Assembly (NCBI GenBank): GCA_051305975.1
Contig: JBPPMI010000216.1
Span: forward strand, 1 to 28,030
DNA length: 28,030 bases
Direction: 5' to 3'
From: Solirubrobacterales bacterium
GTDB lineage: Bacteria; Actinomycetota; Thermoleophilia; Solirubrobacterales; 70-9
Shown: positions 7,560 to 21,838 of the stretch, one piece after another
Numbering within the stretch: position 1 is the first letter of the stretch
Layout of the letters: the number at the start of each line of letters is the position of its first letter
Position numbers and translations under genes: made by a program
Notes under the pieces: generated by a model
Databases searched by the model: none
What the model saw: the letters and a program-made list of their open reading frames with translations, nothing else
Told to the model about the DNA's origin: nothing

Positions 7560-8612
7560 GTGGACCTTGCCCAGCTCGAGACGACCATGGCCGAACTCGG
7601 CCAGCCCGCCTACCGGACCAACCAGGTCTGGGAGTGGCTCGCGCGCGGGGCCGATTCGTTCGACGAGATGAGCAACCTGCCGGCGGACCTGCGGGAGCAA
7701 CTCGCGGAGAAGCTGCCAGTCTCGACCCTGGAAGTCGATGCTTCGGCCCTTTCGGTCGACGGCACCGAGAAGGCCCTCTTCCTGACCGGTGACCAGCGAC
7801 CGGTCGAAGCCGTTCTGATGCGCTACCGCGACGGGCGCCGCTCCCTCTGCCTCTCCAGCCAGTCGGGCTGCCCGCTCACCTGCACCTTCTGCGCCACCGG
7901 CACTATGAAGTTCGGCCGCAACCTGACCGAATCGGAGATCCTCGACCAGGCCCTCCACTTCCGGAGGAAGGAAGAGGTCAACCACACCGTCTTCATGGGC
8001 ATGGGGGAGCCGATGATGAACCTCGACAACGTCCTCGCGGCCTGCGAGAAGCTGCCGGAGATCGGGATCGCCAACTCGCACACGACGATCTCGACCGTCG
8101 GCTGGCTGCCGGGCATCCAGCGGGTGACGACCGACGGGCCATCGGTGCGGCTCGCCCTCTCGCTCCACGCGCCGAACGACGAACTGCGGTCGAGGATCAT
8201 GCCGGTCAACGACAAGTACCCGATGAACGAAGTGGTCGACGCGGCCCGCGAGTGGCGCCACGTCCGGAAACGCAAGGTCTTCATCGAGTACCTGATGCTC
8301 GACGGCGTGAACGACAGCGACGAGCTCGCGAATGAACTGGCCGACCTGCTGCTGCCGAAGAACGACTTCAAGGTCAACCTGATTCCGTACAACCCGACCG
8401 GTGGCGTCTACCAGGGCTCACCCCGTGGGCGGATCGAAGCATTCCGTCAGACACTGATGAAGCGCGGCATCCACGCGACGGTCCGCCTCACAAGAGGCAG
8501 GGACATCGACGCAGCCTGCGGCCAACTCGCCGCCAAGGCCGTGGGTCCCACGGAACCACCAGGACCCGCCTGGACTTCGTCGACGGCCGACACGACCAGC
8601 TCAGGTACGTGA
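7560..8612 (+). CDS. rlmN: Dual-specificity RNA methyltransferase RlmN (radical SAM, 23S rRNA m2A2503)
   Basis: CLSSQSGCPLTCTFCATG (CxxxCxxC), VFMGMGEP, LALSLHAP, VNLIPYN, RGRDIDAACGQL. The GTG start has CACACT 6 nt upstream. Confidence 0.95.
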   Translation: MDLAQLETTMAELGQPAYRTNQVWEWLARGADSFDEMSNLPADLREQLAEKLPVSTLEVDASALSVDGTEKALFLTGDQRPVEAVLMRYRDGRRSLCLSSQSGCPLTCTFCATGTMKFGRNLTESEILDQALHFRRKEEVNHTVFMGMGEPMMNLDNVLAACEKLPEIGIANSHTTISTVGWLPGIQRVTTDGPSVRLALSLHAPNDELRSRIMPVNDKYPMNEVVDAAREWRHVRKRKVFIEYLMLDGVNDSDELANELADLLLPKNDFKVNLIPYNPTGGVYQGSPRGRIEAFRQTLMKRGIHATVRLTRGRDIDAACGQLAAKAVGPTEPPGPAWTSSTADTTSSGT

Positions 8613-8680
8613 GTACGATCGCGGGCCGTGTCGGCCTTTACTCCCCGCCAGCCGGCCCCTGGAGGCCCCGTGGAACCCGC
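8541..8680. repeat. Structured ~140-nt dispersed element, copy A (family unknown)
   Basis: Aligns to 21701-21838. Outer stem 8541-8553/8668-8680, inner stem 8585-8597/8624-8636, two CCAG-N7-CTGG hairpins, and a 26-nt loop 24/26 identical to copy B. Confidence 0.88.
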
Positions 8681-8694
8681 GGTGAGCCTCTAAG

Positions 8695-8943
8695 GTGGAA
8701 ACAGTTGTGCTTGCTAAGTCGAAAGGCAGTTCGATGACGCCCAGAACTTATTTGCGTTCCGCAATCACGCTTACGGTCGTAATGTTCGGCCTTCTTCTCC
8801 TGATGATTCCGATCGGCGCCAACCTCGGTCCCGTGGAGCTCGGCATCTGGCTGGCCATCCTCGTAATCGGACTCGCCATCCTCGGGTTCGGCGGCGTGCG
8901 CTCATGGATGCGCAGCCGTTCGGTCGAACAGACTGCCGCCTAG
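8695..8943 (+). CDS. Small two-TM membrane protein, unknown function
   Basis: 82-aa ORF with two hydrophobic helices. Start uncertain (GTG 8695, GTG 8707 or ATG 8734). The 5' half is relatively AT-rich. Confidence 0.55.
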   Translation: METVVLAKSKGSSMTPRTYLRSAITLTVVMFGLLLLMIPIGANLGPVELGIWLAILVIGLAILGFGGVRSWMRSRSVEQTAA

Positions 8944-8964
8944 CCACCGAACATCCGGAGAGAA

Positions 8965-9474
8965 CTACTTCTCTTCTTCGGCTTCCATGTCGCGGAGGCG
9001 CTGCCGTGACTCTTCCAGCACTTCCAGGGCGGCTTCGAGGGGGTACCAGCCGTCGACTTCGACGTGCTTACCCTCGGGCTGCTTGTAGACAGAGAAAAAA
9101 TGCGCTATCTCTTCGCGCAGCTGGTCCGACAGCATGTCGAGGTTCTTGATGTAGCTCCAGTTGGGATCGTGTGAAGGCACGCAGAGGACCTTGTCGTCCA
9201 CCTGGCCTTCGTCAGTCATCCGGAAGAGCCCGATCGGGATCGACGGGATGATGCAACCCGGGAAGGTCGGCTCGGAAACGCAGACCATTGCGTCGAGCGG
9301 ATCGCCGTCGGCACCCATCGTGTGCGGCACGAAGCCGTAATCGACCGGGTAGACCATGGACGAGAAGAGGAACCGATCGAGGATGATGGCTCCGATGTCC
9401 GGGTCGTATTCGTATTTGTTGCGGGATCCCTTAGGGACCTCGATGAGGATGTTCAGCTGTTCAGTCTCAGTCAT
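8965..9474 (-). CDS. ppa: Soluble inorganic pyrophosphatase (family I)
   Basis: IEVPKGSRNKYEYD, YPVDYGF, DGDPLD, DDKVLCV and FFSVYK motifs. Confidence 0.95.
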   Translation of the reverse strand: MTETEQLNILIEVPKGSRNKYEYDPDIGAIILDRFLFSSMVYPVDYGFVPHTMGADGDPLDAMVCVSEPTFPGCIIPSIPIGLFRMTDEGQVDDKVLCVPSHDPNWSYIKNLDMLSDQLREEIAHFFSVYKQPEGKHVEVDGWYPLEAALEVLEESRQRLRDMEAEEEK

Positions 9475-9477
9475 TCC

Positions 9478-21039: not shown

Positions 21040-21045
21040 TCGAGT

Positions 21046-21495
21046 GTGAGTGATGACAAGTCCATGATGGCGCTGGCGCTGGCCGAAGCCCGAGACGCGG
21101 AGGCTGCCGGAGACGTCCCGATCGGCGCCGTGATCGCCCAGCACGGCAAGATCATCGCCGCGGCCGGCAACGAACGCGAGCTGCGGAAGGATCCGACCGC
21201 CCACGCGGAAGTCCTCGCCATCCGCAAGGCCTCGAAGGCACTTGGCGGCTGGCGCCTCCCGGAAACGACGCTCTACGTGACGCTCGAGCCCTGCGCGATG
21301 TGCGCGGGGGCGATAATCCTCGCCCGGATTCCCCGAGTCGTTTTCGGCGCCTGGGACCCGAAAGCCGGGGCGGGAGGATCGATCCTCGACGTCCTCGCCC
21401 AGCCGGGCCTGAACCACCACCCGGAAGTGGAGGGTGGGGTCTTACGAGAAGAGTGCGCCGCAGTGCTGAGCAATTTCTTCGCAGCCCGCCGCTAA
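21046..21495 (+). CDS. tadA: tRNA-specific adenosine deaminase TadA
   Basis: [33 protein letters not shown] and NH motifs. Confidence 0.93.
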
Positions 21496-21552
21496 AGCCC
21501 GCGAGACCACGAAAGTCCTGCATTATCGGGGACTTTCGTGGTCTCGCGGGCT
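21496..21552. repeat. Perfect 23-bp inverted repeat (terminator or REP-like palindrome)
   Basis: AGCCCGCGAGACCACGAAAGTCC (21496-21518) / GGACTTTCGTGGTCTCGCGGGCT (21530-21552), 11-nt loop, starting at the base after the tadA stop. Confidence 0.9.
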
Positions 21553-21598
21553 CCTGGGACCGCTGTTCGCCCGACTCGGATATCTTTGTCAGTCCCCC

Positions 21599-21687
21599 GG
21601 AGGGGTGTCCGAGTGGCTTAAGGAGCGCGATTGGAAATCGCGTGGGCGGGATCTCTCGTCTCGTGGGTTCGAATCCCACCCTCTCCG
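21599..21687 (+). tRNA. tRNA-Ser (anticodon GGA)
   Basis: Acceptor GGAGGGG/CCTCTCC + G discriminator, anticodon arm CGCGA-TTGGAAA-TCGCG, long variable arm, T arm GTGGG-TTCGAAT-CCCAC. No encoded CCA. Confidence 0.96.
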
Positions 21688-21700
21688 TTCAACCAGACGC

Positions 21701-21838
21701 GCGTGTTTCCCGGAACCACCAGAGCGCGCCTGGCTTCGTCGACGCCGGGAATGTCAGCTCAAGTACGTGGGTACGATCGCGGACATTCCCGGCTTTACTC
21801 CTCGCCAGCCACGCTCTGGCGGCCCCGGGGACGCACGC
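21701..21838. repeat. Structured ~140-nt dispersed element, copy B (family unknown)
   Basis: Same architecture and orientation as 8541-8680. Perfect 12-bp inner stem GCCGGGAATGTC/GACATTCCCGGC around the conserved 26-nt loop. Confidence 0.88.

What the first reader, a model, noticed from the sequence alone, without database searches (positions are those of the whole stretch)
8541..21838. Unannotated ~140-nt element in two copies with conserved loops and compensatory stem changes
Seen: 8541-8680 and 21701-21838 align in the same orientation. The unpaired or linker blocks are almost invariant: CGGAACCACCAG 12/12, CTTCGTCGACG 11/11, central loop AGCTCA(G/A)GTACGTG(A/G)GTACGATCGCG 24/26, TTTACTCC(C/T)CGCCAGCC 16/17, CTGG(A/C)GGCCCCG 11/12. 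The two long stems have different sequences but still pair. Inner stem: GGCCGACACGACC/GGCCGTGTCGGCC (12 of 13 pairs) in A versus GCCGGGAATGTC/GACATTCCCGGC (12 of 12) in B. Outer stem: GTGGGTCCCACGG/CCGTGGAACCCGC in A versus GCGTGTTTCCCGG/CCGGGGACGCACGC in B. The fold is a multibranch junction: closing stem, hairpin, long stem with a 26-nt loop, hairpin. Established: conserved loops with covarying stems are the signature of selection on a folded RNA or ssDNA. Inference: a new ncRNA family, or a non-autonomous REP/REPIN/MITE-like element folded for a transposase or nuclease encoded elsewhere. Wobble polarity is mixed (G-T pairs on + in B, A-C mismatches in A), so the active strand and RNA versus DNA are unresolved. 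Two copies are few for covariation statistics.
Basis: partly seen in the sequence, partly recalled or inferred. Interest (0 to 1): 0.9.

Follow-up and report, generated by a model that had tools for sequence, protein, structure and literature searches.

The report
Gene-end hairpin repeat family, Solirubrobacterales
The two look-alike 140-base stretches are copies of an undescribed, roughly 150-base self-folding DNA repeat that one genus of uncultured Solirubrobacterales carries in 0 to about 40 copies, mostly right behind the stop codons of ordinary genes; it is a new family of a known kind of element (REP/ERIC/TRIT-like), and its enzyme and purpose are still unknown.

Summary
Both stretches match as described and belong to a dispersed family: 17 loci in this 2.3-Mb MAG, found in 18 of 24 congeners searched, almost nowhere outside the genus, and absent from Rfam, plasmids and viral contigs.

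The fold is one long rod-like hairpin, not the multibranch junction proposed. Over 92 copies, 93.6% of pair cells are paired and 38 of 42 pairs show double changes. Pairing is kept on the window's minus strand (G-U 425 cells, A-C 43). The "invariant loops" read there as tandem G·A motifs.

Copies fill gene-end gaps. They are present, absent, eroded to about 40-nt stubs, or carry swapped tip modules at orthologous sites. One 465-nt composite is duplicated within a genome with sharp ends and no target duplication.

No partner enzyme was found. Y1/RAYT, IS630-type and IS110 transposases were not found in the high-copy genomes searched, and the DUF559 link is only a lead. No promoter was detected, and transcription is not shown.

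Best reading: a REP/ERIC/TRIT-like non-coding gene-end repeat that depends on the fold of one strand. RNA versus single-stranded DNA remains unresolved. Earlier reports of this scan describe sister families in other Solirubrobacterales genomes, so this is a new member of a known kind. Interest is moderate.

The parts
8535..8684 (-). Rod copy A. A single long imperfect hairpin, with pairing best kept on the minus strand. Its plus-strand 5' part supplies the last 26 codons and the TGA (8610-8612) of rlmN.
   Evidence: Model R1 hit at 134.2 bits; folds; orthologous copy in congener G044 and a 9-nt remnant in G007.
21696..21841 (-). Rod copy B, lying between two tRNA-Ser genes.
   Evidence: R1 hit at 135.6 bits; orthologous copies in G007 (L034) and JBPPMT01 (L078), the latter with a different tip module.
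8575..8585 (.). Invariant block CTTCGTCGACG of copy A. On the minus strand it reads CGUCGACGAAG and faces GAGGAGUAAAG.
   Evidence: Sequence; columns 120-128 are 90-92 of 92 conserved, and G46 A47 / G121 A122 are present in 89 of 92 copies.
8637..8653 (.). Invariant block TTTACTCCCCGCCAGCC of copy A, the partner side of the tandem G.A internal loop.
21734..21744 (.). Invariant block CTTCGTCGACG of copy B.
21794..21810 (.). Invariant block TTTACTCCTCGCCAGCC of copy B.
7560..8612 (+). rlmN (Radical_SAM plus RlmN_N domains). The open frame runs 78 nt into copy A because the native stop, kept in relatives as ...AAKAAA*, has been lost here.
   Evidence: Pfam; comparison of 12 orthologous gene ends.
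21598..21688 (+). tRNA-Ser(GGA). Copy B starts 8 nt after its 3' end.
   Evidence: ARAGORN and Rfam.
21887..21975 (+). tRNA-Ser(CGA), 45 nt beyond copy B.

Best explanation
The two stretches are members of a genus-restricted family of GC-rich, non-coding palindromic repeats of about 148 bp ('rods').

Shown:
- Each rod folds into one long hairpin. It has an outer stem of two main types, an invariant purine-rich internal loop that can form tandem G.A pairs on one strand, a variable inner stem, and one of three exchangeable tip modules.
- Copies occupy the short gaps at gene ends, typically starting at or within a few bases of a stop codon. They are sometimes joined to further repeated modules: a GAGACTCGGCC box, a roughly 45-nt hairpin, and a terminator-like hairpin.
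- Copies are gained, lost, eroded and recombined between species.

Inferred mechanism: the rod is a non-autonomous repeat of the REP/ERIC/TRIT kind. Its spread and upkeep need the folded form of one particular strand (the window's minus strand). That fold is probably read at the invariant G.A loop by a trans-acting protein not yet identified. Once in place the rod acts only as a passive gene-end hairpin for whatever transcription crosses it. Whether the folded strand is single-stranded DNA or RNA is not settled.
For: Family size and range:
- 17 loci in this MAG.
- 18 of 24 congeners have it, with 0 to 34 model matches each (these include some opposite-strand echoes); 42 hits in G046.
- Only single weak hits in 2 of 57 other genera of the family.
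- All 46 exact-pattern loci among 185,579 species genomes are Solirubrobacterales MAGs.

Structure:
- 93.6% of cells paired, 38 of 42 pairs with double changes, 0 of 500 shuffles as high, and slid controls at 31-47% paired.
- One strand: G-U 425 versus A-C 43 cells. The minus-type strand is more stable in 87 of 88 copies by about 21 kcal/mol. Among minority variants, G-U 218 versus A-C 38.
- Tandem G.A in 89 of 92 copies.

Position:
- For the GGGTGG-type outer stem, the neighbour at the rod's minus-type 3' end is a convergent gene end in 35 of 42 cases. It lies at 15 nt or less in 18 cases and at 60-85 nt in 15; a terminator-like hairpin follows 12 of the 44 copies of this type.

Turnover:
- The rlmN site is filled in G000 and G044, reduced to 9 nt in G007, and empty in the other congeners aligned.
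- Several sites are filled in relatives but empty or reduced to a stub here.
- Tip modules differ between orthologous copies.
- A 465-nt composite is 92.5% identical at two loci of one genome, with sharp ends.

Not a described RNA: no Rfam match even at E 0.1 over 56.7 kb holding at least 11 model hits.
Against: - No partner enzyme was found. Y1_Tnp is not found in G000 or in G046, G044, G007, G018 and G004. DDE_3 and IS110 are not found in the high-copy congeners included in those searches. No IS in G000 carries rod-like ends.
- No target-site duplication could be read, including at the two paralogous composites. Most 'empty' sites carry unrelated intergenic DNA rather than a clean empty allele.
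- No replichore bias was seen in the one long contig with dnaA: 6:5 left and 2:5 right. This does not favour lagging-strand single-stranded DNA transposition.
- Mosaic identity and module swapping show that gene conversion can mimic both 'mobility' and 'compensation'.
- The fixed order of box, rod and terminator-like hairpin on the paired strand would also suit a transcript.
Confidence: 0.5

Rival explanations
1. The rod is a functional RNA read from the window's minus strand. It would be a multi-copy small RNA or 3'-UTR module whose invariant tandem-G.A loop binds a protein, with the GAGACTCGGCC box and upstream hairpin as leader and the GC hairpin as its terminator. The repeats would be many genes of one RNA family.
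For: - Pairing, G-U wobbles and G.A motifs are all on that strand.
- The module order box, rod, CTCA, terminator-like hairpin is fixed on that strand in many copies and species.
- One 151-nt contig of a soil metatranscriptome matches a rod with 3 differences in 123 nt.
Against: - No sigma-70-like promoter in two composites, and no conserved -35 upstream of the box.
- Only 16 of the 92 aligned copies have the terminator-like hairpin (12 of the 44 GGGTGG-type copies), and both window copies lack the box.
- For the commonest type, the gene tied to the rod is the one whose sense strand is the weaker-folding strand (35 of 42).
- Copy number runs from 0 to about 40 among congeners, with stubs and truncations. 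That suits selfish DNA better than a needed RNA.
- The RNA-library contig may be carried-over DNA (note).
Confidence: 0.25
2. The rods are transcription terminators or 3'-end protectors for the flanking genes, spread because they work (TRIT-like), and both strands matter.
For: - They sit at stop codons, often between convergent genes (33 of 87 copies with both neighbours called), and replace ordinary terminator hairpins at orthologous sites, for example downstream of rpsD.
- TRIT in Mycobacterium has the same narrow placement at stop codons (PMC3152330).
Against: - No T or U run follows the rod on either strand (sequence; scan).
- Fifteen copies sit 60-85 nt behind the stop, and a separate terminator-like hairpin stands next to the rod in 12 copies of this type, so those rods would lie behind a terminator.
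- The strong one-strand asymmetry is not expected of a bidirectional terminator.
- Some copies lie just upstream of gene starts: rpmF in G000 and two genes in JADJRQ01.
Confidence: 0.12
3. The rod is an ordinary IS-derived MITE moved by a DDE transposase (IS630/Tc1-like, TA target), or a REP/REPIN moved by a RAYT.
For: - Many junctions read TA, TAG or CTAG, and several read GTAG, as at REP 5' ends.
- Inverted doublets around a spacer resemble REPINs.
- Size and lack of coding capacity fit bacterial MITEs (PMC2229807).
Against: - Y1_Tnp was found in only 1 of 24 congeners and in none of the high-copy ones.
- DDE_3 was found in 0 of 15 congeners and IS110 in 1 of 15.
- No IS with matching ends.
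- No TA duplication at the paralogous composite ends.
- The TAG/TGA at junctions is often simply the neighbour's own stop codon, present in the empty allele too (window 19579-19606).
Confidence: 0.08
4. The rods are inert palindromic DNA kept paired only by arm-to-arm and copy-to-copy gene conversion, with no fold-dependent step at all.
For: Module swapping at orthologous sites and mosaic identity between paralogues; erosion to stubs.
Against: A strand-symmetric DNA process does not explain G-U over A-C at about 10 to 1, G.A rather than C.T motifs, or near-invariant loop blocks across 92 copies and several species.
Confidence: 0.05

Closest known systems
ERIC/IRU and YPAL/RU-2 repeats of enterobacteria (127-168 bp imperfect palindromes)
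   Same: Similar size. The whole element folds as one long stem-loop. It is non-coding and intergenic at gene ends, with orientation-dependent context. Like the rod, YPAL is not AT-rich, lacks TA termini, and lies next to regions of dyad symmetry (PMC2229807).
   Different: No sequence relation, and a different phylum. ERIC and YPAL make target duplications; none was found here. The rods have an invariant tandem-G.A loop, exchangeable tip modules and a marked one-strand pairing bias.
TRIT, the conserved terminator-like hairpin repeat of Mycobacterium (Gardner et al. 2011, PMC3152330)
   Same: An actinobacterial, palindromic, conserved-sequence hairpin in about 150 copies, with a very narrow position at the stop codon. 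Its authors also proposed a factor that binds the motif.
   Different: TRIT is reported only from Mycobacterium. The rods are mostly confined to one Solirubrobacterales genus. They have long covarying stems, and no termination evidence or U tract.
REP / REPIN-RAYT systems
   Same: Extragenic palindromic repeats, inverted doublets, some GTAG-like 5' junctions, and a fold-dependent single-strand logic.
   Different: REPs are 20-40 nt long, and their genomes carry a Y1 HUH RAYT gene flanked by REPs. No Y1 gene was found in G000 or in the high-copy congeners.
Correia/NEMIS and RUP MITEs
   Same: Repeats of about 100-155 bp whose transcripts form long hairpins, scattered at gene ends.
   Different: Those have TIRs matching an IS and TA duplications. 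Here no IS partner was found and no duplication could be read.

Membership tests
Any Rfam 15 RNA family | Covariance-model match at or near the gathering score | tested here: not met
   The window scan at the gathering threshold returned only two tRNAs. An E<=0.1 scan of 56.7 kb holding at least 11 model hits returned only RNase P and a c-di-AMP riboswitch.
REP/REPIN-RAYT | Y1 HUH transposase (RAYT, PF01797) present in genomes that carry the repeats | tested here: not met
   No matches in G000, G007, G046, G044, G018 or G004. Found in 1 of 24 congeners. The control genomes were detected.
REP/REPIN-RAYT | Short (20-40 nt) palindrome with a conserved 5' GTAG, often as inverted doublets | tested here: inconclusive
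   Rods are about 148 nt. Stubs of about 40 nt exist, inverted doublets exist, and GTAG occurs at only some junctions.
IS-derived MITE | Terminal inverted repeats shared with an autonomous IS in the same genomes | tested here: not met
   No further rod-like ends beyond rods and stubs in G000. No similarity to its DDE_3 or IS110 contigs. Those transposases are not found in the high-copy congeners included in those searches.
IS-derived MITE | Target-site duplication | tested here: inconclusive
   None at the ends of two paralogous 465-nt composites. Filled-versus-empty comparisons are blurred by fast intergenic turnover.
Intrinsic (Rho-independent) terminator | GC-rich hairpin followed directly by a U tract | tested here: not met
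   No T run after the rod on either strand. The scan found none at rods.
TRIT-like stop-codon hairpin repeats | Narrow placement at the annotated stop codon | tested here: met
   Thirty copies have a convergent gene end within 15 nt of the rod end. Fifteen GGGTGG-type copies lie at 60-85 nt (three more of other types do), and a terminator-like hairpin flanks 12 of the 44 GGGTGG-type copies. The gene caller is a crude GC3-based one.
TRIT-like stop-codon hairpin repeats | Sequence or model match to the Mycobacterium TRIT motif | not testable with these tools
   No TRIT model or alignment was at hand. The paper reports TRIT only from Mycobacterium.
Stand-alone sRNA gene | Own promoter and terminator, and a discrete transcript | tested here: inconclusive
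   No sigma-70-like promoter. A terminator-like hairpin follows only some copies. One RNA-library contig was found, without strand information.

The most novel reading that the evidence does not exclude
The rods, and the sister hairpin families of this order, are the substrates of a REP-like system that works without a HUH transposase. A structure-specific enzyme reads the invariant tandem-G.A loop on one folded strand and places or maintains the repeats at stop codons. The best lead for that enzyme is one of the multi-copy DUF559 nuclease paralogues, each of which is itself bracketed by its own small hairpin.
Probability: 0.15. Interest if true: 0.8.

Novelty: new member of a known kind. Interest (0 to 1): 0.45.

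Why it matters
- It adds a well-defined, statistically solid family to the poorly understood gene-end palindromic repeats of Actinomycetota. The family comes with a covariance model, 92 aligned copies, a resolved strand and described modules.
- In streamlined genomes of about 2-3 Mb, which look poor in insertion sequences, the spaces behind stop codons are nevertheless occupied by fast-turning-over structured repeats.
- These repeats can rewrite protein C-termini. Here RlmN gains a 26-residue tail.
- They break MAG assemblies: three copies lie at contig ends.
- They would be mis-called as new ncRNAs by covariation screens.
- If the fold-reading enzyme were found, it would define a new repeat-propagation system.

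Tried and rejected
- Rfam at the gathering threshold and at E 0.1: nothing.
- Multibranch fold with local CCAG-N7-CTGG hairpins: rejected by pair counts.
- RAYT/IS200 partner: not found. IS630-type DDE_3 and IS110: not found in the high-copy congeners included in those searches.
- Rod-like ends on a longer element, or similarity to G000's own IS contigs: none.
- DUF559 as partner: counts correlate with rod counts (rho 0.65), but the correlation falls to 0.28 (p 0.19) once genome size is removed. No DUF559 gene lies next to a rod in G000.
- Replication-strand bias in the contig carrying dnaA: none.
- Promoter scan of two composites: none.
- Target duplication: TA/TAG/CTAG looked promising at some junctions, but it fails at the paralogous composite ends. 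The stop codon often pre-exists in the empty allele.
The outer stem is family-wide, and in copy A it overlaps only 2-3 nt of conserved rlmN sequence.
- RNA evidence: the source sample has only DNA runs. Metatranscriptome contigs gave one unstranded 151-nt match.
- Viral contigs and plasmids: no match.
- The GAGACTCGG box as an independent repeat in G000: 19 hits by my own estimate about the chance level, 3 of them beside rods.
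Full report
**1. The observation**

The blastn score is 79% over 124 nt, E 2e-21. Each strand of each copy folds far better than dinucleotide shuffles (z -5.4 to -10.7).

**2. The fold**

The minimum-energy fold of all four strands is one long rod-like hairpin with internal loops, not a multibranch junction. A 12-copy alignment gave 42 consensus pairs, 16 with compensatory changes.

With 92 copies aligned to the model:
- 93.6% of pair cells are standard pairs.
- 38 of 42 pairs show changes on both sides.
- No shuffle out of 500 reaches any measure.
- Sliding the 3' partners drops pairing to 31-47%.

Those bases pair with each other across the rod instead.

Two caveats apply. 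The alignment is fitted to the model, and the copies are related by descent.

**3. A family, and where it lives**

- Iterated nhmmer and model R1 find 17 loci in this 353-contig, 2.33-Mb MAG. Three lie at contig ends and two are degenerate.
- R1 finds the family in 18 of 24 congeners, with 0 to 34 matches per genome. It gives only marginal hits in 16 genomes of other genera of the order. The nearly closed genome G046 has 42 hits.
- Across 57 other genera of the family, only three single, weaker hits appear. Two of them are rods of a related but different sequence family.
- An exact two-block pattern scanned over 185,579 species genomes hit 46 loci, all in MAGs titled Solirubrobacterales bacterium.
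- There are no hits in viral contigs or plasmids.
- No Rfam family matches, even at E 0.1 over loci holding at least 11 model hits.
- The window's source is a beach-sand metagenome.

**4. Which strand**

Pairing is kept on the strand that is minus in the window.
- On it, the pair cells are 3092 Watson-Crick, 425 G-U, 43 A-C and 197 other.
- It folds about 21 kcal/mol better in 87 of 88 full copies with RNA parameters, and better in 88 of 88 with DNA parameters.
- Among pairs whose commonest state is Watson-Crick, minority G-U cells outnumber A-C cells 218 to 38.

That gives G-C pairs framing tandem G.A/A.G (all four bases present in 89 of 92 copies). A second tandem G.A sits under the commonest tip (77 of 92). 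On the other strand these would be pyrimidine mismatches. So the fold of one specific strand is what is conserved. The data do not tell RNA from single-stranded DNA.

**5. Anatomy**

- There are two main outer-stem types. On the paired strand they begin xAGTGG or GGGTGG.
- There are three tip modules, in mixed combinations.
- Many copies carry further repeated modules in a fixed order on the paired strand:
  - a covarying hairpin of about 45 nt;
  - a GGCTYCCGAGACTCGGCCTTTYC box, 13-20 nt before the rod;
  - the rod itself;
  - CTCA;
  - a GC-rich terminator-like hairpin.
- Two rods of different type often face away from each other around the 45-nt hairpin. In G000 this arrangement lies between yceD and rpmF.
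- Stubs of about 40 nt that keep only the outer stem also occur.
- Both window copies are bare rods without the box.

**6. Position**

With a crude GC3-based gene caller, the rod end that is 3' on the paired strand faces the 3' end of a convergent gene in 60 of the 87 copies with a called neighbour on that side. For the GGGTGG type this holds in 35 of 42 cases. The distance is 15 nt or less in 18 cases and 60-85 nt in 15. A terminator-like hairpin flanks the rod in 12 of the 44 copies of this type.

Examples:
- ilvC, yceD, rlmN, rpsD and tRNA genes.
- In the window, copy A follows rlmN. Relatives end RlmN at ...AAKAAA-stop. G044 has the rod directly after that stop. G000 has lost about 12 nt including the stop, so the frame runs 26 codons into the rod, to a TGA in its tip.
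- In G000 the ilvC stop is the rod's own TGA, whereas a relative keeps a separate TAA 11 nt upstream.
- Other copies lie just upstream of gene starts.

**7. Turnover**

- The rlmN site is filled in G000 and G044. In G007 it is reduced to TAG-9 nt-TAG. It is empty in the other congeners aligned.
- The tRNA-Ser copy is shared with G007 and with a JBPPMT01 MAG. Other congeners have the two tRNA-Ser genes 50-170 nt apart, without a rod and in other orientations.
- Sites that hold a rod in relatives are empty here, for example window about 19579-19606 and 24253-24330. Elsewhere they hold a stub or unrelated hairpins.
- Orthologous copies can carry different tip modules. Ten orthologous pairs show 40 compensated, 20 wobble and 42 pair-breaking differences. 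Copy-to-copy conversion therefore contributes to the 'covariation'.
- Within one genome, a 465-nt composite (rod, box, hairpin, box, rod, terminator-like hairpin) is 92.5% identical at two loci. Its ends are sharp, it has no target duplication, and its identity is mosaic.

**8. Partner search**

- Y1_Tnp is not found in G000 or in the five high-copy congeners.
- DDE_3 and IS110 are not found in the high-copy congeners included in those searches.
- No IS in G000 has rod-like ends.
- DUF559 genes are multi-copy. In G000 most are bracketed by their own small hairpins. Their count tracks rod count only through genome size, and none adjoins a rod.
- Rod orientation shows no replichore bias around dnaA in G046.

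**9. Transcription**

No sigma-70-like promoter was found in two composites. The only RNA-library trace is a single unstranded 151-nt contig matching one rod.

**10. Reading**

What is shown: a genus-restricted, non-coding, gene-end palindromic repeat with a conserved one-strand fold and rapid gain, loss and recombination.

What is inferred: its spread or upkeep needs that folded strand, read at the invariant G.A loop by an unidentified protein. In place it is a passive hairpin. The rivals are an RNA gene family on the paired strand, terminators, an ordinary MITE or REP, and inert palindromes. They are weighed in their own sections.

**11. Known relatives in kind**

The closest in kind are ERIC/YPAL, TRIT, REP/REPIN and Correia. 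Membership in REP-RAYT, IS-derived MITEs, intrinsic terminators and Rfam families each fails on a tested defining feature.

Earlier reports of this scan describe sister 'stop-codon hairpin repeat' families, and a doublet of about 150-nt modules, in other Solirubrobacterales genomes. Those notes are unchecked leads.

**12. Verdict**

The feature is real and not in Rfam, and no description turned up in two paper searches. It is well supported as a structured repeat, but it belongs to a known kind. The mechanism is unresolved and interest is moderate.

Noticed in passing
G000 contigs C240 (ORF 644-1645), C218, C305, C123, C288, C286, C46: There are seven DUF559 (PF04480) genes of about 315-376 aa. 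Most are bracketed by two same-orientation copies of a copy-specific 40-50-nt hairpin, and those hairpins have a few solo copies elsewhere. This layout resembles a nuclease with its own repeats. In congener G016 such a gene sits directly behind rlmN, the site of rod copy A.
   Followed up: partly
window 7560-8612 (+), end at 8610-8612: RlmN has lost its native stop and gains a 26-residue tail encoded by the rod, ending at a TGA in the rod tip. In G000 contig C300, ilvC likewise uses the rod's own TGA as its stop.
   Followed up: yes
window about 19579-19606 and about 24253-24330: These gene-end gaps are empty here but hold a rod in other species' MAGs (CAVOIH01, JBPPMT01, JADJRQ01). The first lies between the usp gene and the S8 peptidase gene; the second lies downstream of rpsD. 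Downstream of rpsD, G000 has an ordinary terminator-like hairpin where the relatives have the rod.
   Followed up: partly
window 21598-21975 and congeners: The two tRNA-Ser genes are tandem here. In G007 they are convergent. In most congeners they are divergent or in reversed order, 50-170 nt apart. This points to rearrangements around the rod-bearing spacer.
   Followed up: no
G000 C304 about 8100-8230; L071 spacer 6510-7193: A different long GC-rich palindrome family (GGGGTACGGAGGTGCCCCCGGAGGGC...) occupies other gene-end gaps. Gene ends in this genus therefore host several unrelated hairpin repeat families.
   Followed up: no
L022 1649-2029 (G017): A tandem array of units of about 57 nt, each carrying a GAGACTC-type box and a GCGAAGCGCGG hairpin, lies between two inverted rods.
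   Followed up: no
L109, L110, L111 (genera g35 and g68): Other genera of the family carry rods of the same architecture but with different conserved blocks (CUGGCAAGGACG... and ...GAGGACGCCGCCAG). This suggests an order-wide superfamily with genus-specific sequence families.
   Followed up: partly
L062 1020-1666: Two rods lie directly beside the RNase P RNA gene and a c-di-AMP riboswitch in a JBBSKC01 MAG.
   Followed up: no
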